In this document: positions 1-23,084 of the stretch, one piece after another | Layout of the letters: every line of letters begins with the position of its first letter | Numbering within the stretch: the first letter of the stretch is position 1 | From: Myxococcota bacterium | Lineage (GTDB): Bacteria > Myxococcota_A > Polyangia > Polyangiales > Houyiibacteriaceae | Length of the DNA: 23,084 nt | Reading direction: 5' to 3' | NCBI GenBank assembly: GCA_039030515.1 | Contig: JBCCEA010000051.1 | Coordinates: 1-23,084 of the forward strand | Translations under genes and position numbers: made by a program | The notes under the pieces: model-generated | Databases searched by the model: none | What the model was told of the DNA's origin: nothing | The model's input: the letters and a program-made list of their open reading frames with translations, nothing else

Positions 1-401
1 GGCGTTCGGGCCGACATACGCGTACCCAGGGGGCCTAGGTTGGTCAAAACAGCGAGCGCCCCGGAAGCGCAGGAGTGAAGGCGTACTTCGGGTACGTTGA
101 GCGACGAGCATGGGAGGAAAGCCGCTGTTTGGGCCGACTCACTCACCACCCCCCAGCGGGTCTAGGTTGGCCTAAATAGCGAGCGCCCCGCACGCGCAGG
201 GGTGAAGGCGTACTTCGGGTACGTTGAGCGACGAGCATGGGAGGAAAGCAGGCGTTCGGGCCGACATACGCGTACCCAGCGGGTCTAGGTTGGCCTAAAT
301 AGCGAGCGCCCCGCACGCGCAGGAGTGAAGGCGTACTTCGGGTACGTTGAGCGACGAGCATGGGAGGAAAGCCGCTATTTAGGCCGACATAGGCCCGCTG
401 G
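1..401 (+). repeat. Tandem array of ~125-nt hairpin-forming repeat units (tail of one unit plus 3 full units), REP/MITE-like
   Basis: The core AGCGAGCGCCCC...GAAGGCGTACTTCGGGTACGTTGAGCGACGAGCATGGGAGGAAAGC starts at 51, 178 and 301. Bases 1-29 recur at 251-279. The last unit is closed by an imperfect inverted repeat, 276-304 (CCAGCGGGTCTAGGTTGGCCTAAATAGCG) vs 373-401 (CGCTATTTAGGCCGACATAGGCCCGCTGG). Confidence 0.93.
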
Positions 402-402
402 A

Positions 403-1506
403 TTAGAGGTTTTGAATGCGCCGTCGTGCCTGTCGATGATCCGGGTCGAGTTCGATCACCCTCTCGAACGAGCGAACGGCTTCCTCACGCTGTTGTGAAG
501 CGAGGAGCGCATCGCCGAGCACCATCCAAGCTGCCGGCCACTGAGGGGCGACCTCGACCGCACGGCGCGCCCAGCTCAGCGCGCGTGAAGCACTGCCTTC
601 CTGCAGATGGACTCGAGCCATGCCGACGGCGCCCTCTGGATTTTCGGGCCGGTATCGGAGCGCTCGCACAAAGGATGCTCGGGCCAGTGCAGCGTGGCCG
701 AGGCGTTGGGCGGTGCGGCCGGTCCGAGCCGCATTTTTGGATAGGTTGCGCAGCTCGGACTCGTTGAATTTATCAAAGACCGGATCGTTTCTGCTCGCGC
801 GCAAAAGCCGCTCATCTTCTTCTGCCGCGTCGAGCGCTCCATCTGCAGGCGTTTTGGTTTGGACTGCATTCAACTCGGCTGGCGTGCGCTGAGCCTCCAT
901 AGAAGAACCTGAGACCTCAGATGAAGCCGGCGCTTCCGAGGGCACTGTCATCGGAGTGACCTCGGTCAGCGGAGTGACCCTGAGCGCACTTGCCCGGTTT
1001 GCGCCGAGATCGGCGTAGTAGGGCCCGACGATCGACGAGACCGCGACCACCGCGAGCAGGCCCATGGCGAAACCGAGCATCAGGCTCCCTGCAGAACAAA
1101 GCCAGCGCCAAGAGCGCTTGAATTCTGAAGTCGAGCTGAGGAGTCTCGGCGGTAGTTTGGGAGAGGCGTATTGCGTTTTCGGGGGCTCTGAGGTTGCGCC
1201 TTGAGCTCTCGCCTCCCGCTGAGGCGAAGCTCGCCGCAATGTCGATGTGCTGGCCGAAGGTTTTGTGGAGACTGAACCTGCCGCGCTGAACGAATAGAGC
1301 CCCGAAAACTCAAAGCCTCGAGCCGAAGACGCACTCCCGTACGATCCCATCGCAGCATCGACTCCTGCAGGATGTATCTGCTTGGGACGCGTCACGTTCG
1401 GAACGGTCGGTCTCGAGCGCGCACTGCGAGACGACAAAGCACCAGGGTCAAGCAAGCGATTCAGAGTCGAAGGCAGTCTCGGCCCTCGGTTTTTTGACTC
1501 GAGCAT
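403..1506 (-). CDS. Single-pass membrane protein with Ser/Ala-rich N-terminal region and C-terminal TPR repeats
   Basis: 367-aa ORF with AGGAGG just upstream of the ATG. Hydrophobic helix LMLGFAMGLLAVVAVSSIVG. TPR-like motifs: FVRALRYRPENPEGAVGMA, AVEVAPQWPAAWMVLGDALLA, FERVIELDPDH. Confidence 0.8.
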   Translation of the reverse strand: MLESKNRGPRLPSTLNRLLDPGALSSRSARSRPTVPNVTRPKQIHPAGVDAAMGSYGSASSARGFEFSGLYSFSAAGSVSTKPSASTSTLRRASPQREARAQGATSEPPKTQYASPKLPPRLLSSTSEFKRSWRWLCSAGSLMLGFAMGLLAVVAVSSIVGPYYADLGANRASALRVTPLTEVTPMTVPSEAPASSEVSGSSMEAQRTPAELNAVQTKTPADGALDAAEEDERLLRASRNDPVFDKFNESELRNLSKNAARTGRTAQRLGHAALARASFVRALRYRPENPEGAVGMARVHLQEGSASRALSWARRAVEVAPQWPAAWMVLGDALLASQQREEAVRSFERVIELDPDHRQARRRIQNL

Positions 1507-1512
1507 GTTTGA

Positions 1513-1518
1513 CCTCCT
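1513..1518 (-). promoter_or_regulatory. Shine-Dalgarno (AGGAGG) of the TPR gene
   Basis: CCTCCT on the + strand, 6 nt from the ATG at 1506. Confidence 0.75.
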
Positions 1519-1708
1519 GAGGGATACGGATTTGTTTCGCCGCGTACACAGCGCCCCACATCTTCATGATGAAAAATAAACGCCGTCGCTTCCATTTCGG
1601 TGGATTGCAACGCCCCCTTGAGCCACTGCATCAGACTGGCCGCAAGCATCTTTCGAACGCCGTAGCGCATCTTCCCAATTCCCAAAAACGTGTCACGATC
1701 AGAACGTC

Positions 1709-2152
1709 GTGGCAGGAAACGTCGTCGTCACCGGGCATCTGTGCATGCCTCTTCCGATGTCCAAGGAGGGCGCCATGCTCACGGCGTCCCCGGTGGCGCT
1801 TCCCTTCGTCGCCAGTTCCGCGACAACCCCGCCCATGCTCTGTTCAGGTGATGAGACAGCTGCTCCGGTTTGGATGTTGCCTTACATAGTTGGCTCGTTT
1901 ACGACTCCAGGTATGTTGCGGATGCGGGTGGTGCTCCTGAAAGGCGATCAGCCTTCTCGTGCGATCTCTTTGGGTGGGCGTTCGGTGTTGACCGAGGGAA
2001 CTCCGCTCACCGGAGAGGTTCTCGGGACCGTAATCACTCCAGCGTTGATGGTGCAGGGAACGAGCGTCACGACCGATCCTGCTTTGGCGTATTACTTTCC
2101 TCTCCATCTGTTTCCTTCAACGCAGTCCCCGCCCATCCTTGAGGGCGGCTGA
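1709..2152 (+). CDS. Putative contractile injection system spike-tip protein (Afp10/Pvc10-like, PAAR-like)
   Basis: 147-aa ORF with GTG start. The motif order C-x-GDE ... Y-x4-F-x2-PG ... L-x-GDQ ... GG-x-x-VL-x-x-G ... V-x-x-PA ... D-x4-Y matches my recollection of Afp10/Pvc10-family spike tips, as does the length. Confidence 0.6.
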   Translation: MAGNVVVTGHLCMPLPMSKEGAMLTASPVALPFVASSATTPPMLCSGDETAAPVWMLPYIVGSFTTPGMLRMRVVLLKGDQPSRAISLGGRSVLTEGTPLTGEVLGTVITPALMVQGTSVTTDPALAYYFPLHLFPSTQSPPILEGG

Positions 2153-2160
2153 GTCGACCC

Positions 2161-2724
2161 GTGCGCGCTTCTAGGCGATGGCTGCGGATCGCGTTGGTTC
2201 TGCTTGCGTTTGTGCTCGCACCGGTTTTGGTATCGACATTCGATCTTCAGTCCCACTTTGAGCTGGAGGCGATTCAGTCGACCATTCGAGGGGCAGGATG
2301 GTGGGGGATGCTCGTCTTTGTCCTGATGTTTAGCGTGGGCGAGCTGCTGCATATTCCCGGCATCGTATTCGTTGCGGCATCGATGCTGGTCTACGATCGG
2401 TTTCTCGGCACCCTCATAGCCTACGCTGGAGCGGTAGTGGCCGTGACGGTGAGTTTCTTGGTGGTGCGTACCCTCGGCGGCCAAGTTCTCGGTACCCTCG
2501 AGCAGCCTTGGGTCCGGCGAGCCCTGCTCCGTCTCGACCAACGTCCCATTCGAACTGTCATCCTGCTGCGCATCGTGCTTTGGATGTTGCCGGCACTCAA
2601 TTACGCGCTCGCACTGACCCGGATTCGCCTTTTTCACTACGTTCTAGGTTCCGCGCTGGGGCTGCTGCCGCCGATCGTGCTGATCTCACTCCTGTTCGAC
2701 TGGTTTCTGGAGCGCCTGTCTTGA
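2161..2724 (+). CDS. TVP38/TMEM64 (DedA/VTT superfamily) membrane protein
   Basis: Multiple TM helices. Motifs HIPG, VSFLVVRTLG, ILLRIV...P..LNYALALTRIRLFHYVLGSALGLLP. Confidence 0.85.
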   Translation: MRASRRWLRIALVLLAFVLAPVLVSTFDLQSHFELEAIQSTIRGAGWWGMLVFVLMFSVGELLHIPGIVFVAASMLVYDRFLGTLIAYAGAVVAVTVSFLVVRTLGGQVLGTLEQPWVRRALLRLDQRPIRTVILLRIVLWMLPALNYALALTRIRLFHYVLGSALGLLPPIVLISLLFDWFLERLS

Positions 2725-3476
2725 TCTTGAATTCACCCCTGCTTCGCGAGTTTGTGCACGGTTTCTCTACCCGAGCGGGAGGCGTGAGCGAGGGCCCGTT
2801 TCACGCGCTGAACCTCGGGCGCAGTTTGGGCGACCGTCCATCTGCCGTTACGGAAAACCGCAGGAGGTTTGCCGAGGCCGCCCGCTACGATGCGAACGCC
2901 CTAGTGGAAGCCCACCAGGTGCACGGGGCCGCGGTTCGGGTGATCGACCCGGGTGAAGATCCGGCCGCCTCCTCTCAGAAGCCGGCTGACGCGCTGATCG
3001 GCCGGGATGGGGTGACGGTTGGGATTCGGGTTGCGGATTGCGTTCCCATCTTGATCGCCGATCCCAAGACGGGGTGGGTTGCCGCGGTTCATGCTGGATG
3101 GCGGGGAATCGTTGCCGGTGTGGTTCAGGAGACCTTCCGGGCACTTTACCGTTTGGGCGCCTCGCCCGCAGACTGCTGCGCCGCAATCGGTCCCCACATC
3201 GAAGCGTGCCACTTTGAAGTGGGTGAAGATGTTGCAAGTCAGATACAGGCGGCTGCCGCGGGAGCGACGGTGGTTTTTGAAGACTCAGGCAGTCTCCGGG
3301 TCTCTCTAGAGGCGGCAGTGCGGGCCCAGATTCTCGATGCGGGGCTTTCTGCCGACCGGATCGACCGAATCGCTGGATGCACTTTTGCTGAGCAGGATCG
3401 CTTCTTTTCTTACCGTCGCGACTCGGGAACGACTGGACGCCACCTGGCGGTGATCCAGTCGAGGGAGGCTTCTTAG
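2721..3476 (+). CDS. pgeF: Peptidoglycan editing factor / purine nucleoside phosphorylase PgeF (YfiH)
   Basis: HGFSTRAGGVS, LNLG, QVHG, ADCVPIL, AAVHAGWRG, IGPHI..C.FEVG, FFSYRR. Start placed at TTG 2721, which overlaps the DedA stop (TTGA) and has GGAG upstream. Confidence 0.92.
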   Translation: MILNSPLLREFVHGFSTRAGGVSEGPFHALNLGRSLGDRPSAVTENRRRFAEAARYDANALVEAHQVHGAAVRVIDPGEDPAASSQKPADALIGRDGVTVGIRVADCVPILIADPKTGWVAAVHAGWRGIVAGVVQETFRALYRLGASPADCCAAIGPHIEACHFEVGEDVASQIQAAAAGATVVFEDSGSLRVSLEAAVRAQILDAGLSADRIDRIAGCTFAEQDRFFSYRRDSGTTGRHLAVIQSREAS

Positions 3477-3535
3477 TTCACGTTTTCCGCCGCTATTTTG
3501 GCGAGAGCGCTGCTCGTGCTAGCCCAAGGCTTCAA

Positions 3536-4378
3536 ATGATGGACCAGCCCGAGCGCACAAAGGCGTCCAAAGACGCTTCGGAAAAGCGAACCATCGGACG
3601 TGGCGTGTTCCGAAATTGCGATGGCTGCGGCGCGACCCTTCGGGCGGAGGAGTTCACCGAGAACTACGAAGTCTGTCCCAAATGCGGCAAGCACTATCGG
3701 CTCGATGGAGACGGCTGGATCGAATTGCTGTTGGACTCCGGCTCCTGGGTCGAACTTGATGAAGGCCTGCGCTCTGCCGATCCTCTTCAGTTTCACGACG
3801 GGCAGAGCTACAGCGCGCGCCTGGAAGCGGCGCAGAGAAAAACAGGTCTGAGCGATGCGGTTGCGGTCGGAAGCGGAGCCATCGAGGGAAGACCGGTCGA
3901 ATTTGGAGTCTTTCAGTTCCGTTTCATGGGGGGATCGATGGGCTCGGTTGTCGGAGAAAAGCTCGCTCGGCTGTTCGAACGAGCCCTCGAGCGCAAGCGG
4001 CCCGCGATCCTTCTCTCGTCTTCGGGTGGGGCGCGGATGCAGGAGGGGGTGCTTTCGCTGATGCAGATGGCCAAAACCGTATCGGCACTCGGGCAGCTTC
4101 GAGAAGCTTCGATCCCGTTTCTCAGCGTTTTGCTGCATCCAACGACTGGAGGCGTCGCTGCCAGCTTTGCCCTCCTCGGAGACGTCAATATTGCGGAGCC
4201 TGAAGCACTCATCGGATTTGCGGGTCCTCGGGTGATCGAGCAAACGATCAAGCAAACGCTGCCGGAGGGATTTCAGAGTTCGGAGTTTCAAATGGAGCAC
4301 GGGCAAATCGACATCATCGCGAGCCGCCACGAACTTCGAGATACGCTCAGTACCTTGCTGTCTCATATGCTCGATTGA
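3536..4378 (+). CDS. accD: Acetyl-CoA carboxylase carboxyltransferase beta subunit
   Basis: Zn finger CDGC...CPKC, FMGGSMGSVVGEK, SGGARMQEG, PTTGGVAASFA, AEPEALIGFAGPRVIEQTI, LPEGFQ. Confidence 0.97.
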   Translation: MMDQPERTKASKDASEKRTIGRGVFRNCDGCGATLRAEEFTENYEVCPKCGKHYRLDGDGWIELLLDSGSWVELDEGLRSADPLQFHDGQSYSARLEAAQRKTGLSDAVAVGSGAIEGRPVEFGVFQFRFMGGSMGSVVGEKLARLFERALERKRPAILLSSSGGARMQEGVLSLMQMAKTVSALGQLREASIPFLSVLLHPTTGGVAASFALLGDVNIAEPEALIGFAGPRVIEQTIKQTLPEGFQSSEFQMEHGQIDIIASRHELRDTLSTLLSHMLD

Positions 4379-4578
4379 TCGCGTCCTGTGTTGATCCCGC
4401 GGCATGGGGGCGAACGGCCCAAGAGCTGAACGAATGATCGCCCCGGGGGCAAATGGAGGATGCCCGCTGCCGACCATTTCAAGAAGCGGCAGCGATCCCG
4501 CGCGCCAGGGTGAGGCCCGTCCGTGTCGGATCGCGGCGGCGCAGCCAAGACCGGCCTTCTTCTACCCATGAGAATCGG

Positions 4579-5968: not shown

Positions 5969-7627
5969 ATGACCTCTGCTGTGGCTCCGAACGTGGAACT
6001 AGCTGTGGAAGTAACTCCGAGCGGTTTGCCTTCACTTCGCTTTCGTGGCGAGTGGCTGGACGACTCGAAGGACCCCGTTGCCGCTGCGCTTGCGTTTGCC
6101 GACCCGGAGATCGTGGAAGGGGCGAATCGAGTGGTGCTTTTTGGCGCCGGACTTGGCTATCGAATCCTCAGGTTGGAAGAGCTTGGAGTGGATCCGATCA
6201 TCGTCTTCGAGCCCAATCGCGAGGTGGTCTCACTTTGCCGCCAATATGTGCCTCGCGCGCATCAGCGAGCCAGGGTGTTTACCGAGGTCACCCCGTTTCT
6301 CGACTATTTGATCGACGATTATCAGCCGGATCACAGCACGCGGCTTCTTGCGGCTCCCGCGTATCGACGGGCCTATCCTGAATTTTTCGCCAAGGTAGAA
6401 CATACACTTCGAGATGCTCAGGGTTTTGTTTCCATCAAGAAGAAGAGCTTGGAACAACGGTCTCAGGCGATGGTGGAAGCTGCGATGATCAACCTCGGTC
6501 GCGCCGCCGAGGTTCCTGATGCCCTCTCACTCGGTAGACCCCTCGAGGGCAGCGCCGCTTTTATCGTGGCTGCCGGTCCTTCCCTCGACAAGAACGGATC
6601 GCTCCTCTTCGAGGCTTCCAAAAAAGGCGCTATTTTTGCAGTCAATACCTCTGCGCCGGTGGTGAAGCACTACGGGGCAGAGATCGACTGTTTGGTCAGC
6701 ATCGAGGCGATGCGGGCGGCAGACCAGATGCACGGCACGGAGCCTCGCTGCATCGCGCTGGACTTCACCGCGCATCCGGCGAGCTTTGAGGTGCCTTCAG
6801 AAACCAAGATCGCGTTCGCCCAGGATCATCCTGCCTTTGCTCCTCTCGCGACCAAGCTGGGTCTTCGTCGCATGCGCTATGGTGCGAGCGTGGCGACCGC
6901 CGCGGTATCGCTTGCGTGGCATCTCGGCGCGGATCCGATCGTGGTGGTCGGCCAAGATCTCGCGTTCACCGGTGGTCGCGTCTATGCGACGGGCACCGGT
7001 CGAGAGGCAGCCACTGCCACGGTGAACGGCGAAATATTGACCGTAGAATACGGTTTGGACGGCTTTTTCGAAGCCCATGGAGTGAAGCCACCGTCCAAGC
7101 ACCAGCCTCGGCAAACCGTCGCCGCCTGGGGAGGAGGCATGGTCGAGAGTGCGTTCGATCTCTCACTTTTTCGCCGCTGGTTTGAGGGCCTAGCCCACTT
7201 CTCTAAGGACGTTCGTTTCATCAATGCAACTGAGGGGGGCGCCCGTATCGAAGGCTGGGAAGAACATACCTTGCGTGCGGTGATCGACACGCTTTCCCCT
7301 CGTTCGGATGAGCTGATCGCTGCGGCTAAGCGAGCGAAAACGATGTCGGCCGAGGCAGTTGAGTCGCTGCGGCAGGAGACCCGATCGACCGCAAAACTCG
7401 TCGAGCGTGCCGCGAGAAAGTGCCTCAAAGCGCAATCCCGGAGGCAAGAGTCTGCTGCGATGAAGGTCCGTAAACTTGCAGACAATGCGCCGTTTGTAAG
7501 AGCGCATGCGGCAGGGCCTCTGTCTGAGCTTCGTTCAGATGAGTCTTTGGCGCATCGACAGCGCTATCTACGTACTTTTGAAATTATTCGCGATTCTGCC
7601 CGGACGATACGAGAGCTCGCTGAATGA
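5969..7627 (+). CDS. Motility-associated factor (Maf, MAF_flag10/DUF115) family nonulosonate glycosyltransferase
   Basis: N-terminal LFGAGLGY/IIVFEP region. Central IVAAGPSLDKN, SVATAAVSLA..LGADPIVVVGQDLAF and FINATEGGARIEG, all typical of Maf proteins. Confidence 0.88.
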   Translation: MTSAVAPNVELAVEVTPSGLPSLRFRGEWLDDSKDPVAAALAFADPEIVEGANRVVLFGAGLGYRILRLEELGVDPIIVFEPNREVVSLCRQYVPRAHQRARVFTEVTPFLDYLIDDYQPDHSTRLLAAPAYRRAYPEFFAKVEHTLRDAQGFVSIKKKSLEQRSQAMVEAAMINLGRAAEVPDALSLGRPLEGSAAFIVAAGPSLDKNGSLLFEASKKGAIFAVNTSAPVVKHYGAEIDCLVSIEAMRAADQMHGTEPRCIALDFTAHPASFEVPSETKIAFAQDHPAFAPLATKLGLRRMRYGASVATAAVSLAWHLGADPIVVVGQDLAFTGGRVYATGTGREAATATVNGEILTVEYGLDGFFEAHGVKPPSKHQPRQTVAAWGGGMVESAFDLSLFRRWFEGLAHFSKDVRFINATEGGARIEGWEEHTLRAVIDTLSPRSDELIAAAKRAKTMSAEAVESLRQETRSTAKLVERAARKCLKAQSRRQESAAMKVRKLADNAPFVRAHAAGPLSELRSDESLAHRQRYLRTFEIIRDSARTIRELAE

Positions 7628-8667
7628 CTCCGGGCTCCTTCGCCATCCGCGGTCGCTTCATCGGTGACGCGCATCCGCCCTATGTGATTCCTGAGATCGG
7701 AATCAATCACGAGGGCGATATGAATAAAGCGCTTCAAATGATCGATGATGCAAAGGCTGCCGGTGCAGAGTGCGTGAAATTTCAATGCCATATCCTCGAA
7801 GACGAGATGTCCGATGCGGCAAAGAAGGTTGTTCCAGGCAACGCTTCAGAGTCTATCTGGGAGATCATGAGCAGATGCGCTCTGAGTGAATCGCAAGCCA
7901 AGGACCTGAAGGCTTATGCTGAAGACCTCGGTCTGACCTACCTGTGCACCCCATTTTCGCGAGCGGCGGCCGACAGGCTTGAATCGATGGGAGTCGATGC
8001 CTACAAAATTGGTTCTGGTGAGTGCAACAATTACCCGCTCATCGATCACATCGCCTCATTCGGTAAACCGATCATTTTGAGTACCGGAATGAACGATCTT
8101 GCCAGCATCGCCCGCGCGGTCGACGTGCTGGAGAAGCGTTCGGCATCTTACGCGTTGCTGCACTGCACCTCGATGTATCCGACGCCGTACCCCAAAGTGC
8201 GTCTTGGCGCGCTCGACGAGATGCGTCGTCGATTTCCCGGGGTGACCGTGGGGCTTTCCGATCACTCTCTCGGCAACTGGACCTGCTTTGGTGCGATACC
8301 GCTTGGGGCCCGCGTCTTAGAAAAACACTTTACCAGTGATCGAAACTGGCCGGGTCCGGATGTGCCGATATCGATAACGCCCCGTGAGCTGTCGGAGCTG
8401 GTCGAAGGGAGTCGGGCGATCTTCCAGGCGCTTGGCGGCGAGAAAGCTGTGCTGCAAGAGGAAGAGCCGACCATTCGTTTTGCCTACGCCAGCGTGGTGA
8501 CGCTCGGTCAGGTTCGGGCGGGGGAACAGTTCACCAAGCAAAATCTCTGGGTGAAGAGGCCAGGCACCGGTGAGATTCTCGCCGAGCATTTCGAGTCGAT
8601 TCTCGGTCGTCGCGCAGAATGCGACGTGCCTGCGGATGCGCAGTTGAGGTGGGAGCAGATCGTTTGA
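7624..8667 (+). CDS. neuB: N-acetylneuraminate synthase (NeuB/SiaC-like) with C-terminal AFP-like/SAF domain
   Basis: EIGINHEG, EDEMS..AK.V.PGNA..SI.EIM.RCAL, TPFSRAAA, YKIGSGECNNYPL, PIILSTGM, LHCT..YPT, GLSDH, LEKHFT, WVKRPGTG. ATGA overlap with maf. Confidence 0.95.
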   Translation: MTPGSFAIRGRFIGDAHPPYVIPEIGINHEGDMNKALQMIDDAKAAGAECVKFQCHILEDEMSDAAKKVVPGNASESIWEIMSRCALSESQAKDLKAYAEDLGLTYLCTPFSRAAADRLESMGVDAYKIGSGECNNYPLIDHIASFGKPIILSTGMNDLASIARAVDVLEKRSASYALLHCTSMYPTPYPKVRLGALDEMRRRFPGVTVGLSDHSLGNWTCFGAIPLGARVLEKHFTSDRNWPGPDVPISITPRELSELVEGSRAIFQALGGEKAVLQEEEPTIRFAYASVVTLGQVRAGEQFTKQNLWVKRPGTGEILAEHFESILGRRAECDVPADAQLRWEQIV

Positions 8668-9827
8668 AAAAGCGTGTCGTATTTTTGAGCGGTACTCGGG
8701 CAGACTTTGGAAAAATCAAGTCGTTGATTCGCACGCTACTACAGCCACCGTTTCAGTTTGATGTGCATATATTTGCGACAGGAATGCACATGGAGCCTAA
8801 GTACGGCTTCACCGTCGAAGAGATTCAAAAGTGCGGCTTTCCCAATATCTACCGCTTTATCAATCAGTCGAGCCAGGGACTGATGGACAGGAGCCTTGCG
8901 CATACGGTTCTCGGGTTTGGAGACTACGTCCGCTTGATTCAGCCCGATCTTATCGTGGTGCACGGTGATCGAGTGGAGGCTCTTGCGGGAGCCATGGTGG
9001 GCGCGCTGAGCAATGTTCGGGTGGCGCATATCGAGGGCGGCGAGATCTCCGGAACGGTCGACGAACTGATTCGTCACTCCGTCACCAAAATGAGCCACAT
9101 TCACTTCGTTTCCAACGAAGAAGCCAAACGCCGTCTGGTTCAGCTTGGTGAGCCGGAGCCGAGCATTCACGTCATCGGATCTCCCGATGTCGACATCATG
9201 AACTCTCCGGATTTGCCGAGCCTTGACGAGGTCAAAGCCTACTACGAGATCGATTTTGACCGCTACGGCATCCTCGTATTTCATCCGGTAACCACGAGTG
9301 TCGACGGGCTTCGCGAGGAAACTCGTGCGCTGCTGCACGGCGTACTCGATTCCGGGCGCAACTGGGTCGCCATCTACCCCAATAGCGATCTTGGCTCCGA
9401 CATCATCTTGGAAGAATACGATCGATTGCTGAGAGATCGGGTCGAGGTGCGTCTCTTTCCTTCCTTGCGGTTTGAGTCGATGCTGGTGTTGCTCAAATAC
9501 GCTGAGCTGATCGTCGGCAACTCCTCGATGGGTATCCGCGAAGCTCCCTATTACGGGGTGCCGACGGTCAATGTCGGATCCCGGCAGGCGGGTCGAAGCG
9601 CGAACCCAAACATCGTGACCGTAGCCCCAGCCTATGACGAAGTGCGCGGGGCGATCGACCGCGCGGCTCAGTTGCGCACCTGGCTCAAGCCCGTGCAGGA
9701 GTTTGGCCGTGGAGACAGTCATCAGCGCTTTCGAGCGGTTTTAGAGCGTGGGGATATTTGGGGCATCAGCGTGCAAAAACAGTTTTGCGATTTGCCGATC
9801 ACCGCTTTCGATCGAAATGCCGCATGA
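8664..9827 (+). CDS. neuC: Hydrolysing UDP-GlcNAc 2-epimerase (NeuC/SiaA-like)
   Basis: GTRADFGK, TGMH, VHGDR.EALAGA, HIEGGE.SGTVDELIRHS, IGSPD.D, FHPVTT, YPNSD.G, GNSS.GIREAP. TTG start at 8664 overlaps the neuB stop (TTGA). Confidence 0.95.
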   Translation: MKKRVVFLSGTRADFGKIKSLIRTLLQPPFQFDVHIFATGMHMEPKYGFTVEEIQKCGFPNIYRFINQSSQGLMDRSLAHTVLGFGDYVRLIQPDLIVVHGDRVEALAGAMVGALSNVRVAHIEGGEISGTVDELIRHSVTKMSHIHFVSNEEAKRRLVQLGEPEPSIHVIGSPDVDIMNSPDLPSLDEVKAYYEIDFDRYGILVFHPVTTSVDGLREETRALLHGVLDSGRNWVAIYPNSDLGSDIILEEYDRLLRDRVEVRLFPSLRFESMLVLLKYAELIVGNSSMGIREAPYYGVPTVNVGSRQAGRSANPNIVTVAPAYDEVRGAIDRAAQLRTWLKPVQEFGRGDSHQRFRAVLERGDIWGISVQKQFCDLPITAFDRNAA

Positions 9828-10585
9828 GAAGACTCAGTGAAACTCTTGGCCAAACCCTCGCGGTCATTCCCGCTCGAGGAGGGTCTCGAGGGATTCCTCA
9901 AAAAAATATCGCTCCGGTTTTTGGACGCCCGCTGCTCGCTTGGACCATCGAGGCTGCTCTCAAGGCCGATGAGATCGACCGGGTCGTGGTATCGAGCGAC
10001 TGTGACGAGGTCCTCAAAGTTGCCCGTCGATGGGGTGCAGAGCCGCTGCACAGGCCTAAAGAGCTTGCAACCGACATCTGCGCAAGCGAGCCGGTCCTAG
10101 GGCATGCCTTTTCTACGCTCCAGTCAGAGGGAGCCAACGTCGAGACGCTCGTCTTGCTGCAGCCGACTTCGCCGCTCCGGGATGCGGGCCATATCGACGA
10201 GGCACTTGCGCTCTTGGGCGCCGGGGTGAACGCAGTGATCAGCGTGTACGAGCCACGGCATTCACCCCATAAATGCCTGCAGTTGAGCCCGAGCGGCAGC
10301 CTTCAAGGCCTGGTCGACGAGGATGCGCCTTTTCGTCGACGACAAGATCTGCCGATGGCCCTTATGCCGAACGGTGCGATCTACGCGATCACTGCGGAGG
10401 CATTTCGGCAAACGCGAAGGCTTTTGACCGATCGTACGGCGCCCTACATCATGGCCGCCCACTTGAGTTTGGACATCGATACCCCGAAAGACCTGCAGGA
10501 GGCAGAGCGTCGATTGCGCACGCTGAGGCCCGCCTCGGTTGGGCTCAGCACGAGACGACGATCGACACTATTCAATTCGCTGTGA
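9824..10585 (+). CDS. neuA: Acylneuraminate cytidylyltransferase (CMP-sialic acid synthetase)
   Basis: AVIPARGGSRGIPQKNI, RP.ELATD, LLQPTSPLR, RQDLP, PNGAIY, SLDIDT..D. ATG 9824 overlaps the neuC stop (ATGA). Confidence 0.93.
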   Translation: MRRLSETLGQTLAVIPARGGSRGIPQKNIAPVFGRPLLAWTIEAALKADEIDRVVVSSDCDEVLKVARRWGAEPLHRPKELATDICASEPVLGHAFSTLQSEGANVETLVLLQPTSPLRDAGHIDEALALLGAGVNAVISVYEPRHSPHKCLQLSPSGSLQGLVDEDAPFRRRQDLPMALMPNGAIYAITAEAFRQTRRLLTDRTAPYIMAAHLSLDIDTPKDLQEAERRLRTLRPASVGLSTRRRSTLFNSL

Positions 10586-16841: not shown

Positions 16842-17843
16842 ATGGGTGTGAGTCGCTGCGTTCGCGAGTGCATCCCTCGCATACGACGCCATGGCACCCG
16901 CCTTCTGTCCCTATGGGTCCTGTTCGGCTGGATCGCTTTTGACTGGCTCTCCCCGTGCATTGAGTTGTCTGCAGGTGTGTCCCGAGCCTGCGTGACGCGA
17001 GGGCTGTGTTCGGTTGGGTTCCCGATCGCTCGCGCAGAGCCACCTCACGTATCGCCCTCTTCAGAGGGGTCGGGGACGCAGCACGGGCTTCAGGAGGGGC
17101 GCGTTTCGAGCTGCCTTGCGCCACCGGTTCTCGTCGTACGCTACTCGGCCCCAAGAGAGCGGAGTTGGCTTTCTCTCACGACTTGTGACGGCCGCCCGAA
17201 CTTGAGCGCTTTGCGGGAACTGGGTGAACTCGGCCGACCTCAATCACAGGTCCGATCCGGTTCTCGAAGCCCCTCCCGCGAACCAGATCGCTTGGGACGC
17301 TGGCAGTTGAACGCTGGGCTGCTCACCCGTCTGCAAGAGATTGCAGATCACTTCCCCGATCGATCCCTTTTGATCGTTGCAGGTCGTCAAAGAGAGCGTG
17401 AAGCTTCGGTGAGCCGTCACGTGCGTGGTAGGGCGATCGATGTGCAGGTTGAGGGAAGCTCGGGTGCCGAGCTGGCTCGGTTTGCGCGCACCCTCGCTCA
17501 AACGGGAGTGGGTCACTATCCAAATCGGTCCTTTACCCACCTTGACGTCCGTAGCCAAAGTGCCTTTTGGGTCGATGTCAGCCGACCCGGCGAACGCGCG
17601 CAGTACCTGAATCCATCGGACATCCCAGATCTCGAAAGATGGCTTGCGGTTGACGTTGTGAATGTGGAGGCATTTGAACCCAACACCTCTCCCGCTCTGG
17701 GTGCAGATACCTCGGCAGGGTTCGTGGAAGATGCGCTGCCGGCGAGCGGCACGGGCTCCCTAGAATCTCAGCGCGCATCGGATAGAGAGGCGTTTCTACA
17801 AATGCTTACTCGCGCAGAAGCGATCTCCCAGGGCGAACCCTAG
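16842..17843 (+). CDS. YcbK/DUF882 (peptidase M15A, MepK-like) Zn metallopeptidase with N-terminal hydrophobic segment
   Basis: LLTRLQEIADHF...SRHVRGRAIDV...GVGHYPNRSFTHLDVR..W gives the SxH-x6-D and HxD Zn ligands. Start uncertain (16731 GTG or 16842 ATG). Confidence 0.75.
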   Translation: MGVSRCVRECIPRIRRHGTRLLSLWVLFGWIAFDWLSPCIELSAGVSRACVTRGLCSVGFPIARAEPPHVSPSSEGSGTQHGLQEGRVSSCLAPPVLVVRYSAPRERSWLSLTTCDGRPNLSALRELGELGRPQSQVRSGSRSPSREPDRLGRWQLNAGLLTRLQEIADHFPDRSLLIVAGRQREREASVSRHVRGRAIDVQVEGSSGAELARFARTLAQTGVGHYPNRSFTHLDVRSQSAFWVDVSRPGERAQYLNPSDIPDLERWLAVDVVNVEAFEPNTSPALGADTSAGFVEDALPASGTGSLESQRASDREAFLQMLTRAEAISQGEP

Positions 17844-17911
17844 ATCGGGTCGTGAGGAGCATCCGGCGTGAACTATGGACGGCTTCTAAGCCTTGGATCA
17901 CAGTCCAGCGG

Positions 17912-18514
17912 ATGACCCGACGGATTCGCCATCGCTATCAGGATCCATTGGACGCCATTTGGATCGCTGCGGCCCGTTCCACGGGCCTTACCGTAGGTCG
18001 TTCTTCAGAAGTATTTGCGGCCACGGACGGCCGGGGAGAACTGCTCCTCGGTGAAGCCTCGACGCTGGATGCGGACGACGCCCTGGCCCAGATGATCTTT
18101 CACGAGATTTGCCACTGGATCGTGGAGGGTAGGGGTTCATTTCACAGTGTGGATTGGGGTCTATCCAACGCAGAAAACGAAGAAGACGTGTCGCGGGAGC
18201 ATGCAGGATTGCGTGTTCAGGCCTACCTGGCCGGTCTTTACGGGCTTAGGACGTTTCTGGCGCCGACCACCAAATTTCGAAGCTTTTACGATGCTTTGCC
18301 GCAAGAGCCCATCGAAGGAGAGGGTTCAGACGTGCGCCTTGCGCGTGAGGGGCTGATTCGGGCGGAGACTTCCCCCTGGTCTCCTCACCTAGAAAGAGCG
18401 CTCGGTGCGACGCGACGGATCGTGTTTGCGACCAGGCAGGCTCTATTGGAATTTACTTCCCCGGACGTGCAGCTTCTTTATTTCAGTGAGGACGAGTCTC
18501 TCAGACCGCGGTGA
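17912..18514 (+). CDS. HExxH-motif metal-binding protein, distantly EpmC/YfcM-like; function unknown
   Basis: LAQMIFHEICHWIVEG...VDWGL...REHA.LRVQA. ATG 17912 preferred over GTG 17852. Confidence 0.65.
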   Translation: MTRRIRHRYQDPLDAIWIAAARSTGLTVGRSSEVFAATDGRGELLLGEASTLDADDALAQMIFHEICHWIVEGRGSFHSVDWGLSNAENEEDVSREHAGLRVQAYLAGLYGLRTFLAPTTKFRSFYDALPQEPIEGEGSDVRLAREGLIRAETSPWSPHLERALGATRRIVFATRQALLEFTSPDVQLLYFSEDESLRPR

Positions 18515-18580
18515 TTCTGTAGGGTTGTAATCCGCTGCCGCTGAGCGCGCGCCTATTTCCCGCTTGGTCTTTTCTAGGAC

Positions 18581-19510
18581 ATGCCGAAAAAAAAGGTTGG
18601 ACGAGCTGGACTTTCCGCCCGAACTGAAGGAGTTAGACAGGCGATGACTCGTGCCGCACGCTTCGATTCAGCGCACCGACACCAAGTTCAATCTGTCGGC
18701 GATCGACCCCCTCGACCCAGGGGTTCGGTGTGCCTTCAAATCGAGGGGATGGAGCCGAGCATCACCGTTCAGGTTGCCTATCAAACCCAGCGCAGCCTTA
18801 CCGTGGCTCAGCCTCTCTCGTTTCTAAGGATCGGAGCCGTTACTCAGGACGAGCAGGGTGTGCTTCGAACTGTTGAGCGGGTGTCCATCGACGTTTCGCG
18901 AGGCGTCCCTCACTTGATGATCGACCTTGCAGAGCATGCATCGCGGCTAGAGCGGGGGCCGCAGTTGGCAAGCTGTGAGCCGTTGCAGCAGGACTTTGGA
19001 TTCGACGAGTGTCCACCAAGCGAGCGTTCCTACCGCTCCTTCGAAGAGCATTTTGAGCCATCGACTCGGGCCGCTGATCGGCAAAGCACCGGCCACGAAT
19101 GGCAGGATACGAGACCAACGCTACCCTTCGGTGACCGATTGGCCGCGCAGGCATGGGGGGATTCGCAGGAAGAAGAGCCCACCGGTCAGCATTCACGGGC
19201 TCGAGCCGAAGCTGTGGAGCGGTCATGTCAGTTGAACGTGCCTGCTCGAGCGCGAAAGGCACATGCAGAAGCGTTGCGTGTCGCTTCGATACATATTTCT
19301 TCCGAAATTTCAGAGAACACTCGGTATGAGAGGCTCTTCGAAGAAGACGCCGCTGAAGGAGACACCGCGGAAGATTCTTTCGCCCCATTCGATGAGCCCA
19401 CCCAGATCGCAGTGCGGCAAAGCTATTGGACAGGGCACTTTTATTTCTTTTTGATTCGATGCCGACACTGGTTTGCGAGTGCTTGGTGTTCACTACGCGG
19501 CGAACGCTGA
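18581..19510 (+). CDS. Hypothetical protein (N-terminal beta-rich region, acidic low-complexity C-terminal half, aromatic tail)
   Basis: 309-aa ORF co-oriented with its neighbours and filling the gap between them. No family recognised. Confidence 0.55.
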   Translation: MPKKKVGRAGLSARTEGVRQAMTRAARFDSAHRHQVQSVGDRPPRPRGSVCLQIEGMEPSITVQVAYQTQRSLTVAQPLSFLRIGAVTQDEQGVLRTVERVSIDVSRGVPHLMIDLAEHASRLERGPQLASCEPLQQDFGFDECPPSERSYRSFEEHFEPSTRAADRQSTGHEWQDTRPTLPFGDRLAAQAWGDSQEEEPTGQHSRARAEAVERSCQLNVPARARKAHAEALRVASIHISSEISENTRYERLFEEDAAEGDTAEDSFAPFDEPTQIAVRQSYWTGHFYFFLIRCRHWFASAWCSLRGER

Positions 19511-19591
19511 TCTCGCGCGAGAATCGATGCAGCTGGCCCTAGCGACAGTTGGTGTGAGGGGCGCACTACCCGCTATCAGAATCCGATCGAG

Positions 19592-20776
19592 ATGAGTGCC
19601 GGCCCAAGCTCACTTCCTACGATTCGCCTGCTTCGCCCTTTGGATCGCGTCGCGCGACTTGGACACCCCTGGGTATACCGAGATGCGCTCGAGGGAGCGC
19701 TGCCAAGTCCAGGCACGCTCGTCGATCTCACGTTCAAGGACGACTTTGTGGCGCGCGGTTACTTGGATGGCGGCCCGATCGGTGTGCGACTCCTAACCAC
19801 GCTGAAGGAGCCTTTGGACCTCAATTTTTTTCGGCGGCGCCTCATGGCCGCGGCTGAGCTGAGACGCACTGTGTTGCCCAAGGACACCGATGCTTTTCGT
19901 CTCGTGAATGGAGAGGGAGATCGTTTGCCTGGCGTCGTGTGTGACGTGTACGGAGCCTACGCCGTTCTTCGATTTGATTCTCCCGGGGCGCGTTTGCTCC
20001 TGCCCAAATTGGAGAGCTCTCTGATTCAAGTCCTGAGAGAGTTCGGGGTTCAGAATCTACTTGTACGAGCGGGTCGTGGTGCAGGTCGAACGCTGGAGGT
20101 TCGGGCGGGAACGCTACCGGAAGATTCTATTTCGGTTCGGGAATGCGGCATGACGCTGCTCGTCGATTTGGTTCACGGCCAAAAAACCGGCATGTTTCTC
20201 GACCATAGAGACTCGCGCGCCTTGGTTCGTAGACTGAGCGAGGGTGGTCGGGTGCTCAACCTCTATGGCTATACGGGGGGATTCTCTATTGCCGCCGGGC
20301 TAGGCGGTGCGTTTGAGGTGGTGACGGTGGATGCCGCTCCTGCCGCAATCGACCTTGCTTTGCGAGCGTGGCAGCTCAACGGGCTCTCGCCCAAGAATCA
20401 CCAAGGCATCGCGGCGGACGTGCCAAGTTTTCTCAGGCAAGCTGAGTCCAGTCGAGAGTATTTCGATTTCATTATCGCAGACCCTCCCAGCTTTGCTCCG
20501 AGAGAAGCCGCAAAAGACGCAGCGCTCGAAGTCTACGCTCAGCTTCATCGAAGTTGTGTTGAGAGATTGCGGCCCGGCGGAATGTACCTGGCTGCCTCCT
20601 GCTCAAGTCACGTGGACCGTCATGCATTTTTGGAAACTGTCGTCGAGGCAGGACGAAGACTTTCTCGGGTTTTGCAGGTTCTGGGCTGCTGGGGTGCTGC
20701 TCCCGACCACCCTTTTTTGACTGCGTTTCCAGAAGGTGACTACCTGAAGTCGATCCTTGTACGTCCGGTGTTCTAG
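19592..20776 (+). CDS. rlmI: RlmI-like class I SAM-dependent rRNA m5C methyltransferase with PUA domain
   Basis: GHPWVY, RLVNGEGDRLPG...D.YG, GQKTGMFLDHR, VLNLYGYTGGFS, DPPSF, ASCS, DHP....FPEG.YLK. Confidence 0.88.
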   Translation: MSAGPSSLPTIRLLRPLDRVARLGHPWVYRDALEGALPSPGTLVDLTFKDDFVARGYLDGGPIGVRLLTTLKEPLDLNFFRRRLMAAAELRRTVLPKDTDAFRLVNGEGDRLPGVVCDVYGAYAVLRFDSPGARLLLPKLESSLIQVLREFGVQNLLVRAGRGAGRTLEVRAGTLPEDSISVRECGMTLLVDLVHGQKTGMFLDHRDSRALVRRLSEGGRVLNLYGYTGGFSIAAGLGGAFEVVTVDAAPAAIDLALRAWQLNGLSPKNHQGIAADVPSFLRQAESSREYFDFIIADPPSFAPREAAKDAALEVYAQLHRSCVERLRPGGMYLAASCSSHVDRHAFLETVVEAGRRLSRVLQVLGCWGAAPDHPFLTAFPEGDYLKSILVRPVF

Positions 20777-20787
20777 AGGAACGGCCG

Positions 20788-21003
20788 CCGGAAGCGGAGG
20801 AGCGAAGTCGTACGAAGGTAGAGCGAGCTCCGAGCATCGGAGGTAGAGCGAGGGTTTGAGCGATTCAGAGAAGGTAAGCAGAGTTTTTGAGTTGGTGTGA
20901 ACGGTCAGCGCCCCGGAAGCGGAGGAGCGAAGTCGTACGAAGGTACTGCGAGCTCCGAGCATCGGAGGTAAGCGACCGTTCAGGCCGACTCAGAACCTCT
21001 GCT
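20788..21003 (+). repeat. Two copies of the structured repeat family between convergent rlmI and lolA
   Basis: A 58-bp core occurs at 20788-20845 and 20913-20970 with 2 mismatches. The second copy is closed by an imperfect 30-bp inverted repeat, 20877-20906 / 20974-21003. The core is homologous to the 1-401 units. Confidence 0.9.
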
Positions 21004-21697
21004 ATGGTGTGACGATACGTGTCCCCCTAGGAAACCGAAACTCAAAGTAGCGTTCCTCGATCGGGGTCGTAAAGCGAAGCCCTTGGAACTCGAAAAGGTT
21101 CCGGTTTCCTACTGGGTCGACGATGAGAACGCGCTCCACGATTCCGGCCCCTTCGACGAGTCGCACGTAGAAAAGCACCTGCTCGAAGTGAGGAGACGGA
21201 CTGCGTGGTCTTAGCTGGAGTACGTAACCGTCCCATGCCGCCCCCATGGAATCCCGCGTATCGAGGAGCCTGAAGGTGAACTGTTCGTCGAGCCGCCCGG
21301 TGCCGGTCAGGAACGCAAAGACGGCCGGCAACTGGTTGTCGTCCATCGACTGCTGGTATCCCTGTCCCCTGGTTTCTCCCTCCCTCGGAGGCTCGTAAAC
21401 CTTGAGTGTCTGCCCGTTCGAAACGATGACCTTCTGATGAGGTTCATCGTAATTCCACCGCATACGCCCCGGTTTCTTGAATACGACGGTTCCAGAAGAG
21501 GTCTCCTCTCGATCGTATAGCTTCAAGAAGTACCGTTGCTGAAAGTTGGCCCGAATCGTGGCGGTGCGGTCGTAGAAAGATTGAACTCTTGCCGCGATTT
21601 CGCCCGCTTGCAAAGCAGGCTGAGCCTCGCTTGTCGCGGCTAGATTCACGCCGATAGAGAGCCAGCTGAGTAGCAAGGTGCGTAGCGGACGATTCAT
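21002..21697 (-). CDS. lolA: Outer-membrane lipoprotein carrier protein LolA family
   Basis: Signal-peptide-like N-terminus. ANFQQ, SSGTVVFKKPGRMRWNY..P....IVSNG.TL.VY, D..GN.N.F.F. ATG 21697 has AAGGA upstream. Confidence 0.88.
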   Translation of the reverse strand: MNRPLRTLLLSWLSIGVNLAATSEAQPALQAGEIAARVQSFYDRTATIRANFQQRYFLKLYDREETSSGTVVFKKPGRMRWNYDEPHQKVIVSNGQTLKVYEPPREGETRGQGYQQSMDDNQLPAVFAFLTGTGRLDEQFTFRLLDTRDSMGAAWDGYVLQLRPRSPSPHFEQVLFYVRLVEGAGIVERVLIVDPVGNRNLFEFQGLRFTTPIEERYFEFRFPRGTRIVTP

Positions 21698-21937
21698 GGG
21701 TTTTTGTTCCTTGATGGGGGCACTCGCTGAGATGATCGACTCCACCTTGGATCGAATATTCAATGTTCCGAAAGTGAATCAAGTTCGATCGAATCGAGGT
21801 GGGGGGCATTGATCTTCGATCGCGTTGTCTTCTACGCTCGTTCTTTAGCTCGGGGAAGCTTTTACTTCCCTAGCGTGTTGTGTTCCTTGAAGTCTCGACG
21901 AATCAACTTTTCCAAGATCCAATCAAAGGAAGTTTCT

Positions 21938-22150
21938 ATGCACAAAGCGTTGCCCTCCGCAGAACTCGGCAAACAAATCCTATGGCTCCAAAGCAAACAC
22001 GATGACCTAAGTCGGCAAGTGGACCTCCTTGAGAGGCGCGCTTGGCTCTCCGGCGATGAGCGGACCAGCCTCAGCCGACTCAAGAAACGCAAACTAAGGG
22101 CAAAAGACTCCCTCGAGGCTGCCAGACGGCGGCGGAACCCAACGCTCTAG
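21938..22150 (+). CDS. DUF465/YdcH-family small coiled-coil protein
   Basis: L..KH..L...V..LE....LS..E...L..LKKRKL.AKD.L pattern. AAGGA precedes ATG 21938. Confidence 0.8.
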   Translation: MHKALPSAELGKQILWLQSKHDDLSRQVDLLERRAWLSGDERTSLSRLKKRKLRAKDSLEAARRRRNPTL

Positions 22151-22972
22151 TGTTCCAATGCCTCGGCCCGATCCGCATCACTCGTGAGCGCGCGATGGGA
22201 TGCGGTGTTCGGCACCAGGCGCTGTAAAACCCGTTCAAGCGTCGCCTCTCGCTCGGCAGGAAGCCACTGGTGTTCGCTCGCGCCCGAGCTTTTCGAGCTG
22301 CAGCAATGCCTCGGCACAGCGAGCTTGTATGAACAGGCGAGCTCACGTAAACAGCGCTCCCGCCCCCGCAAGTCGGTCGCTCAGGCCAGCACAGCCGTAG
22401 AGCACCAAAGCTATGAGCAGCGACAGGATCTGAGCGCTCATCCCTCGATGGCTTGGTTCATGGGGTCTCCCGATAGACACGCCATTTCAGTCTAGGCCTG
22501 AGCCCAAGGTGGCCCATCTTTTTCCAGATTATCCTAATTCGGCCCACGCGAGAGAACCGGCTTTGCGTGTCATGCCTTGTTTTCGGGCAAAGTGCGGGAC
22601 CCTACATACTCGAGAAAAGTGAAGTTAAAGCCAAGCTATGGAAGTAGAGCGTCGGACGAACTAGCCCAGCACCCCTAAGTCAAAAGATATACGGTCCTCC
22701 AAGCAACTCAGATGCCACTTAAGATCTAGTCGCCCGAACTCAGGCGCAGTCGTCCTCAGCCAGGGTACATTCGGCTTTTTGTCTAGGATTCCCGAGGCCG
22801 TCGCTCGATGAACGAAGCGGAGCGTCCGGTTTGCGAGCCGAAGATTCTGACATTTGTGTCGTGGTCTCAATAGGGCATGCGCCTTCAAATCTATGTGCCA
22901 GATGCCTAAGTATACGATATTCAAAGGGAAATATTGTTGTGTGATATGTCGGACAGCATTGGCACACCCGCT

Positions 22973-23084
22973 CCAGCGGGCCTATGTCGGCCCAAACAGC
23001 CGCTTGCCGCCTTGCTCGTCGTCGTCAGGTACCAATGAGTACCCTCCTCCTCCTCGCCACGGGGGCGCTGGCTGTTTGAACCAA
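22973..23084 (-). repeat. Diverged copy of the structured repeat family, running off the window end
   Basis: The reverse complement reads TTGGTTCAAACAGCC-AGCGCCCCC...GGGTAC-TCATTG-GTACCT...CGACGAGCA...AAGC-GGCTGTTTGGGCCGACATAGGCCCGCTGG. Its last 20 nt are identical to 382-401. Confidence 0.88.

What the first reader, a model, noticed from the sequence alone, without database searches (positions are those of the whole stretch)
1..23084. Dispersed ~120-nt structured repeat family with compensatory base changes (loci 1-401, 20788-21003, 22973-23084)
Seen in sequence: six core copies at three loci share the architecture closing stem - AGCGCCCC - purine-rich GGAG/GAAG - GTAC(loop)GTAC - CGAGCA - GG - AAGC - closing stem (the 20788 copy is partial). 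The closing stem changes while still pairing: AAACAGCG/CGCTGTTT (unit at 51), AAATAGCG/CGCTATTT (unit at 301), GAACGGTC/GACCGTTC (20.9 kb), AAACAGCC/GGCTGTTT (23 kb). The inner hairpin does the same, cGTAC/GTACg vs gGTAC/GTACc, with a free loop (TTCGG, GAAG, TCATTG). Inference: selection acts on fold rather than sequence alone, pointing to a structured ncRNA or a ssDNA-folding non-autonomous mobile element with at least three subfamilies. It loosely resembles GCGTAC..GTACG multicopy elements I recall from Deltaproteobacteria, but I cannot assign it to a named family. No transposase is present here.
Basis: partly seen in the sequence, partly recalled or inferred. Interest (0 to 1): 0.75.

Follow-up and report, generated by a model that had tools for sequence, protein, structure and literature searches.

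The report
ERIC-like hairpin repeat targeted by IS110
The repeats are copies of a 126-base hairpin element present over 200 times in this myxobacterial genome, mostly just behind stop codons; it resembles the small hairpin repeats of E. coli, inserts into copies of itself, and is the programmed landing site of an RNA-guided transposon.

Summary
The repeat is real and larger than reported. The unit is one 126-bp imperfect hairpin (29-bp arms, 68-nt core). The genome holds 226 hits in 89 arrays (0 on a reversed genome), and relatives occur in 23 of 150 genomes of the phylum (Myxococcota). Covariation is strong and only the purine-rich strand folds well, yet host mRNAs mostly carry the other strand: element 3' ends face convergent stop codons. 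No Rfam family matches.

A model built only from Myxococcota copies finds a six-copy E. coli K-12 repeat (probably RSA; name recalled) and, more weakly, ERIC. In some relatives the same core sits between TA-flanked ends, in one genome IS5-type, so this is an ERIC/RSA-like, MITE-derived family.

This genome's lineage differs: no TA ends, no target duplication, and nested self-insertion at one fixed bond. An intact IS110 has inserted at one bond of the conserved core at all five of its junctions, and its bridge-RNA guide matches that site. No mobilising enzyme was found; RAYT and ISAzo13 were rejected. Verdict: new variant of a known kind; how it spreads is open.

The parts
1..25 (+). right-arm tail of a further copy, cut by the contig start
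   Evidence: (D1: 1-138 is 93% identical to 251-388)
26..151 (+). copy 1 of the tandem array; last ~12 nt replaced by an unpaired C/A-rich linker
   Evidence: (20 of 29 outer positions pair)
153..275 (+). copy 2, chimeric: left and right arms from different subfamilies
   Evidence: (18 of 29 pair)
276..401 (+). copy 3, complete 126-bp rod (29 + 68 + 29); its 3' end lies 1 bp from the stop codon of the convergent gene
   Evidence: 28 of 29 pair; z -8.6
315..316 (+). bond 40|41 of the element, where other copies insert elsewhere in the genome (not filled here)
364..377 (-). 14-bp stretch of the core equivalent to the IS110 target; crossover at element bond 93|94 (window 368|369); not filled here
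403..1506 (-). TPR-domain gene; its stop codon abuts the 3' end of the array
19592..20776 (+). SAM-dependent methyltransferase gene ending 11 bp before the partial copy
20788..20845 (+). partial copy, core only, 97% identical to 20913-20970
   Evidence: D2
20878..21002 (+). complete 125-bp copy with an outer stem found once among 101 copies; last base overlaps the lolA stop codon
   Evidence: 27 of 29 pair; z -10.0
21002..21763 (-). lolA, convergent on the copy at 20878
22973..23084 (-). copy of the second core subfamily (GAGGAG-rich), 5' 14 nt lost at the contig end
   Evidence: (I1)

Best explanation
A non-autonomous mobile hairpin of the ERIC/RSA type, descended from TA-targeting MITEs. Shown: a ~68-nt core with fixed internal loops is kept across Myxococcota inside exchangeable outer arms; in at least four other lineages the arms end in TA-flanked terminal repeats, in one of them clearly IS5-type. 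Inferred: founders were placed by an IS5-type DDE transposase at TA/YTAR sites, which in a GC-rich genome are enriched at TAA/TAG stops, and orientation was then filtered so that mRNAs carry the weaker-folding, C-rich strand. In this genome the TA ends have eroded and the arrays grew by insertion of copies into copies at fixed bonds, with recombination among arms. The purine-rich strand is the one selected to fold, most likely as single-stranded DNA or an antisense RNA bound by an unknown protein (inferred). Because the core is abundant, conserved and intergenic, an IS110 bridge recombinase uses it as its programmed target (junctions and guide match shown; activity not tested).
For: TA-flanked long versions in G178, G047/G159/G107, G128 and G147/G180; TA ends in G007. 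G178 ends match the terminal repeats of an 882-bp broken IS5 at G000:C34:36057-36938 at 12 and 13 of 15 (chance at most 0.0004); one G000 copy and G029 copies reach 9-10 of 15 (chance 0.008-0.036). Of 102 outward array ends, 82 are element 3' ends, 52 of them within 40 bp of a convergent stop; of the 28 at 0-9 bp, 18 are TAA against 450 of 2378 genome-wide. Relatives: 35 of 45 classified 3' ends against 5 of 41 5' ends. Non-Watson-Crick oppositions in the outer stem: G-U 68 against A-C 11, purine-purine 75 against pyrimidine-pyrimidine 9; purine strand stabler in 30 of 30 as RNA and as DNA. K-12 six-copy family: 6 of 6 copies above all 300 pair-preserving shuffles by sequence alone. ERIC: the top 14 of 31 hits of the Myxococcota-only model are the 14 ERIC loci, all on the purine strand; the ERIC-only model finds five Myxococcota copies at E <= 1.3e-4. 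IS110: 5 of 5 junctions at one bond.
Against: The dominant G000 arms match the IS5 repeats only at chance level (5-8 of 15); 0 of 101 copies begin with TA, and flanking direct repeats are at chance (10 of 98, shuffled mean 8.3). The nested site has no TA. No transposase gene was found between element-type ends, and PF01609 does not track the element (10 of 16 carriers, 9 of 16 non-carriers). The ERIC link is weak by sequence alone (1 of 12 above all shuffles; PSSM z -0.3 to 2.1); ERICs were missed in both whole-genome K-12 searches; unrelated perfect palindromes score up to 33.6 bits with the same model, though on both strands and over ~70 nt only; window copies score only ~11 bits with the ERIC model. 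Arm-to-arm conversion can mimic covariation without selection. No local GC-skew or expression data settle DNA against RNA.
Confidence: 0.5

Rival explanations
1. The core itself is the mobilisation signal. A strand-specific enzyme acting on single-stranded DNA (HUH-like) or on an RNA copy recognises the purine-strand fold, cuts at a fixed distance (29 bp out) and inserts without duplication at structured targets; DDE-type ends in other genomes are later captures.
For: Core conserved while ends are free but of fixed length; terminal dinucleotides inverted in 23 of 30 and never a non-palindromic direct repeat; nested insertion at one bond in both orientations and at its mirror bond on the other arm (motif counts: 5 same-orientation, 25 and 20 opposite-orientation junctions, 4 mirror); strand asymmetry; E. 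coli ERICs also have variable, still-paired ends.
Against: No Y1 transposase in G000 (85% complete); Y1 in 8 of 13 carriers and 6 of 16 non-carriers, and those examined are flanked by other palindromes. Nested composites may descend from three or four events. Relatives have clear TA-flanked ends. No reverse transcriptase search was run.
Confidence: 0.27
2. A domesticated cis-acting RNA element: the C-rich strand read through behind stop codons acts in termination or decay (Rho loading or RNase cleavage), and copies spread by recombination and slippage, not transposition.
For: Strong position and orientation bias; 142 of 163 outer-stem mismatches carry a G on the purine strand, so a C on the mRNA strand; ERIC affects mRNA stability in an orientation-dependent way (PMC2229807, passages).
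Against: The strand selected to fold is not the mRNA strand; precise nested insertions and unrelated neighbours need a mobilising step; copy number varies within one genus.
Confidence: 0.15
3. The IS110 recombinase that targets the core also drives its spread or the growth of arrays.
For: IS110 leaves no duplication and has rearranged an array at C21.
Against: Element ends do not resemble the IS110 donor sequence; the nested bonds (40|41, 85|86) differ from the IS110 bond (93|94); no relative of this IS110 at E <= 1e-40 in the carriers G002, G009, G015, G082, G117, G027, and none of 22 transposase loci scanned had an IS inside a copy.
Confidence: 0.06

Closest known systems
ERIC / IRU / RU-1 (127-bp enterobacterial repeat; PMC2229807, PMC3184786, PMC10969869, PMC2759123, passages read)
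   Same: Length 125-128 bp; one long imperfect rod; central TAC-loop-GTA hairpin 61 nt from the 5' end; purine-rich folding strand; variable but paired ends; the pyrimidine strand is found fused to gene 3' ends (PMC2759123); no cognate transposase named in the passages read.
   Different: Low sequence identity; no TA ends in this genome; long tandem and nested arrays; different phylum; targeted by IS110.
Six-copy E. coli K-12 repeat (pyrH-frr and five other loci); probably RSA/BEE95 (name recalled; seen only in a reference title in PMC3751351 and one sentence of PMC5604773)
   Same: Shares the inner core by sequence (6 of 6 above 300 shuffles, purine strand only); a Myxococcota copy in L178 carries both its inner motif and the Myxococcota outer core.
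   Different: About 117 bp, lacks the outer AGCGC / AAGC junction, low copy number; identity with RSA not confirmed from a text.
IS5-family (IS427-like) TA-flanked MITEs
   Same: G178 ends match an IS5 terminal repeat at 12-13 of 15; TA flanks; internal deletions and insertions.
   Different: The dominant copies in this genome have no TA, no duplication and ends at chance similarity to IS5.
IS621-REP pair of E. coli (PMC11208160, passages) and ISPpu10 (bioRxiv 10.64898/2026.03.19.712850, abstract)
   Same: An IS110 whose left end folds into two guide loops; a 9-nt left target guide equal to the target's left half; a multicopy intergenic hairpin as target.
   Different: The target is an ERIC-like core, not REP; target and donor cores read TT and CT; the right guide appears to reach position 14.
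REP / BIME / REPIN with RAYT
   Same: Intergenic arrays at gene 3' ends, no duplication, strand-specific fold.
   Different: No GTAG/CGTC-tagged short unit, no RAYT in the genome or beside the element.
Rfam RF02818 V_AS5 and RF02798 CssrA
   Same: V_AS5 aligns end to end with three K-12 ERIC copies below its gathering score; CssrA overlaps one ERIC copy above it.
   Different: Neither matches the window or the 19 Myxococcota loci scanned.

Membership tests
ERIC/IRU | about 127 bp, single long imperfect stem-loop | tested here: met
ERIC/IRU | sequence similarity to the ERIC consensus | tested here: not met
   HMM: 1 of 12 ERICs above all shuffles; window copies ~11 bits with the ERIC model
ERIC/IRU | shared structure and register (remote homology) | tested here: inconclusive
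   for: (33.6-33.8 bits against ~20 for unrelated palindromes); against:
ERIC/IRU | TA at both termini | tested here: not met
   0 of 101 G000 copies; met in G007
ERIC/IRU | co-transcription and orientation-dependent effect on mRNA decay | not testable with these tools
   no RNA run available
K-12 six-copy (RSA-like) repeat | shared inner core sequence on one strand | tested here: met
K-12 six-copy (RSA-like) repeat | identity of that family with published RSA/BEE95 | tested here: inconclusive
   searches gave the name but no sequence or position
IS5-type MITE | terminal inverted repeats like those of an IS5 | tested here: inconclusive
   met in G178 (12-13 of 15), borderline in G029 and one G000 copy, chance in the main G000 families
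IS5-type MITE | target-site duplication (TA or CTAG) | tested here: not met
   G000; present as TA flanks in other genomes
IS5-type MITE | cognate intact transposase with the same ends | tested here: not met
   only a broken IS5 (NF033580 below cut-off); genome 85% complete
REP/REPIN-RAYT | RAYT (Y1) gene flanked by the repeat | tested here: not met
Rfam ncRNA family | match at the gathering score | tested here: not met
IS110 bridge recombinase (the targeting element) | DEDD and Tnp domains | tested here: met
   PF01548 + PF02371; NF033542 208.5 bits, cut-off 140
IS110 bridge recombinase (the targeting element) | non-coding end with target and donor guides matching the junctions | tested here: met
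IS110 bridge recombinase (the targeting element) | bridge RNA expression and recombination activity | not testable with these tools
   needs an assay

The most novel reading that the evidence does not exclude
ERIC, the K-12 six-copy repeat and these myxobacterial rods are one old cross-phylum family whose conserved core, not its ends, is the mobilisation signal of an undescribed strand-specific, duplication-free mechanism that measures 29 bp from the core and inserts into the same fold. The 'TA duplication' of ERIC would then be only a self-complementary end, and this genome, where the ends have lost TA yet reached more than 200 copies, is where the enzyme could be found.
Probability: 0.25. 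Interest if true: 0.85.

Novelty: new variant of a known kind. Interest (0 to 1): 0.55.

Why it matters
ERIC has been used for strain typing since 1991, but the reviews read here name no enzyme that moves it and treat it as enterobacterial. A high-copy, highly covarying relative gives the alignment depth that ERIC lacks, and states testable rules: which strand folds, where the ends lie, which bond accepts an insertion. The IS110 is a natural bridge recombinase programmed against such a core, with its junctions and guide in one genome, so its targeting rule can be tested directly. The arrays also break this assembly (50 of 86 arrays lie at contig ends).

Tried and rejected
Rfam: no hit in the window or at the element in 19 Myxococcota loci. 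Y1/RAYT: none in G000, no tracking, other palindromes beside them. ISAzo13 next to a copy in L120: the IS ends before the element and the family was not found in G000, G007, G015, G029. PF01609: no tracking. Unpaired terminal repeats in G178, G128, G047 turned out to be truncated remnants; their ORFs were listed but not scanned against families. Neighbour genes: 48 and 84 ORFs scanned (84 of 111 listed), no recurrent partner. Plasmid searches with four Myxococcota or viral-contig copies and one window copy gave nothing significant. Viral-contig patterns gave one full-length element (L209) among 6 loci, one unrelated end match read of 2, and three empty scans. One pattern was miscounted and found nothing; one script had a length error (redone). 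IS110 relatives: one distant metagenome locus and 11 other genomes at 33-40% identity, none inside a copy. Sequencing runs: no RNA holder listed; four DNA contig sets of one study laid on one 10.7-kb region with two arrays showed no empty site, which proves nothing. Orientation against local GC skew 32 to 20, not decisive. De Gregorio 2005 and Sharples and Lloyd 1990 were not held.
Full report
Observation. The window is contig C51 of a 4.08-Mb draft genome, 85% complete. The unit is longer than described: 29-bp left arm, 68-nt core, 29-bp right arm, folding as one rod (z -8.6 and -10.0). Iterated nhmmer gave 214 hits in 86 arrays; a broader profile gave 226 hits in 89 arrays, 24 kb, and 0 on the reversed genome. 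Fifty of 86 arrays lie at contig ends, so the count is a floor. Records that match the core pattern are titled Myxococcota and Polyangia. A covariance model found copies in 23 of 150 genomes of the phylum (only 23 candidates scored per genome).

Structure. In 30 diverse copies from three genomes, 88% of cells pair against 35-39% with slid partners; 42 of 50 pairs show two-sided changes. The 61-row alignment agrees, but it was fitted to the model. Arm-to-arm conversion could produce part of this. Two facts point to selection as well: fixed internal loops persist, and mismatches are one-sided. On the purine-rich strand the outer stem has 68 G-U and 75 purine-purine oppositions against 11 A-C and 9 pyrimidine-pyrimidine; 15 copies from other genomes give 28, 48, 3 and 7. 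That strand is stabler in 30 of 30 copies as RNA and as DNA, so the energies do not choose between the two. Copies are related, so these counts are not independent events.

Ends. Pairing stops sharply at the 29th pair. The terminal two bases are inverted in 23 of 30 copies and direct only when self-complementary (6). No G000 copy of 101 starts with TA, and flanking direct repeats are at chance (10 of 98, shuffled mean 8.3). In G007 the ends are TA. In G178, G047/G159/G107, G128 and G147/G180 the core lies in longer rods with TA-flanked terminal repeats that differ between lineages. G000 holds a broken 882-bp IS5 (C34:36057-36938; NF033580 below cut-off) whose repeats match the G178 ends at 12 and 13 of 15 (chance at most 0.0004), one G000 copy and two G029 copies at 9-10, and the main G000 families only at 5-8.

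Position. Of 102 classifiable outward array ends, 82 are 3' ends of the purine strand; 52 of these lie within 40 bp of a convergent stop codon (12 with the stop inside the element, 28 at 0-9 bp, 12 at 13-38 bp). Of the 28, 18 are TAA, against 19% of long ORFs. In relatives 35 of 45 classified 3' ends and 5 of 41 5' ends lie that close (9 ends without an ORF left out). ORFs were called mechanically. Host mRNAs therefore mostly carry the strand that folds worse. In K-12 the trend is weaker: 6 of 20 ERIC and six-copy elements end within 20 bp of a convergent stop.

Self-insertion. Copies sit inside other copies at bond 40|41 without loss or duplication in the same orientation, at the same bond in the opposite orientation with 2-3 bases lost, and at the mirror bond 85|86 (motif counts 5, 25 and 20, 4). 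Head-to-tail joins mostly share two bases (11 of 12 read GG or GGG). Different subfamilies occur as guest and as host, which suggests at least three or four events; later copying of composites inflates the counts. None of these sites has a TA.

IS110. A 1,287-bp IS110 (C3:161433-162719; NF033542 above cut-off) interrupts a copy. Five junctions (C3 left and right, C4, C58, C21) fall at one bond, 93|94; the C3 and C4 right ends may not be independent; a sixth, 84% identical left end at C13 is not in a detected copy. The left end folds into a 5' stem-loop and two large internal loops. The first carries a 9-nt stretch equal to the target's left half and a 7-nt stretch complementary to its right half; the second carries 8 nt equal to the IS right end, the layout described for IS621 (PMC11208160, passages). 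Of 110 genome sites within two mismatches of the predicted 14-mer, 45 lie in the 0.86% of the genome taken by arrays; the single exact match lies outside them (it is not mapped, and no array holds one). At C21 the IS is cut exactly after its own left guide and continues into the target's right half, which confirms the register. The C13 variant has a changed guide base and a flank that carries the same change. This is a known kind of parasitism (IS621-REP; ISPpu10, abstract only), here on a new target.

Known kin. I fetched 14 K-12 ERIC loci. The Myxococcota-only model R2 ranked all 14 first among 31 hits in 43.6 kb, each on the purine strand and none on the other (E 1.5e-5 to 0.067). The ERIC-only model found five Myxococcota copies at E <= 1.3e-4 among 25 sources and a viral-contig copy at 33.6 bits, against about 20 for unrelated palindromes. 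Against this: perfect palindromes reach 33.6 bits with R2, on both strands; whole-genome K-12 searches with strict filters missed every ERIC; by sequence alone 1 of 12 ERICs beat all shuffles; window copies reach only 11 bits. The whole-genome search instead returned three members of a six-copy K-12 family, all six above 300 shuffles on the purine strand only, while 0 of 4 palindrome controls were. I believe this is RSA/BEE95, from recall; the name was seen but no sequence. So kinship with the six-copy family is well supported, with ERIC probable (about 0.6) but not proven, and the element is not a member of ERIC as defined.

Mobiliser. Not found: see Tried and rejected. The IS5 route explains TA-ended relatives and the TAA bias; it does not explain TA-free nested insertion or the fixed arm length, which the core-driven rival does.

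Literature. Nine full-text searches showed no paper on such a family in Myxococcota, on ERIC homologues in other phyla or on IS110 targeting an ERIC-like repeat; I judged from listings and read passages of PMC10969869, PMC2759123, PMC3184786, PMC2229807, PMC11208160, PMC3751351, PMC11602168 and PMC5604773. Subscription papers are not held, and no supplements were read; the cluster tables of PMC11602168 could contain this family. De Gregorio 2005 is known here only through PMC2229807 and PMC3184786. Earlier AI notes of this scan describe ERIC-like cores in MITEs of other phyla; they came after my tests and are leads, not support, and one of them rejects an ERIC link for its own family.

Verdict. 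Real, strongly structured, a new variant of the ERIC/RSA-type hairpin MITEs, with three features worth following: loss of TA ends with continued spread, insertion at a fixed bond of its own fold, and a cognate bridge recombinase. Interest 0.55.

Noticed in passing
G000:C34:36057-36938 (L242:460-1341): 882-bp TA-flanked IS5-family remnant with a broken transposase; its terminal repeats match the element ends of G178.
   Followed up: yes
G000:C13:34640-34730: Diverged left end of a second IS110 variant with a changed target guide, outside any detected repeat copy.
   Followed up: partly
L146 (G015:C103:1755-1880 and 2466-2591): Two 126-bp copies lie inside an RHS-repeat ORF on the opposite strand without breaking its frame.
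   Followed up: no
L116, L122, L135: Copies beside tRNA genes and upstream of a 23S rRNA gene in three genomes.
   Followed up: no
L112 and L113: Copies behind the same ribonucleotide reductase gene in two genomes of one genus, with different outer arms: a possible orthologous pair for timing arm change.
   Followed up: no
L040, L039, L041, L042 (E. coli K-12): Rfam V_AS5 aligns end to end with ERIC copies below its cut-off, and CssrA overlaps an ERIC copy above it: both families may be ERIC-derived.
   Followed up: partly
plasmid hits H3-H15: A copy of the K-12 six-copy family overlaps an RND efflux permease gene on many enterobacterial plasmids.
   Followed up: no
L186, L188, L197: Y1/RAYT-like genes flanked by their own palindromic repeats in three Myxococcota genomes.
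   Followed up: partly
G007 loci L003, L006, L050-L073: Most copies share a degenerate ~45-nt sequence just upstream of the left end, unexplained.
   Followed up: no
window 5969-10585: MptE-like, NeuB, UDP-GlcNAc 2-epimerase and cytidylyltransferase genes: a nonulosonic acid synthesis cluster.
   Followed up: no
window 1709-2152: Isolated contractile injection system spike-tip-like gene (PF19267).
   Followed up: no
G000:C71, C74, C73, C72: Two further IS110 transposases, an IS1380 transposase and a relaxase on small contigs; none of the three IS contigs scanned holds a copy.
   Followed up: partly
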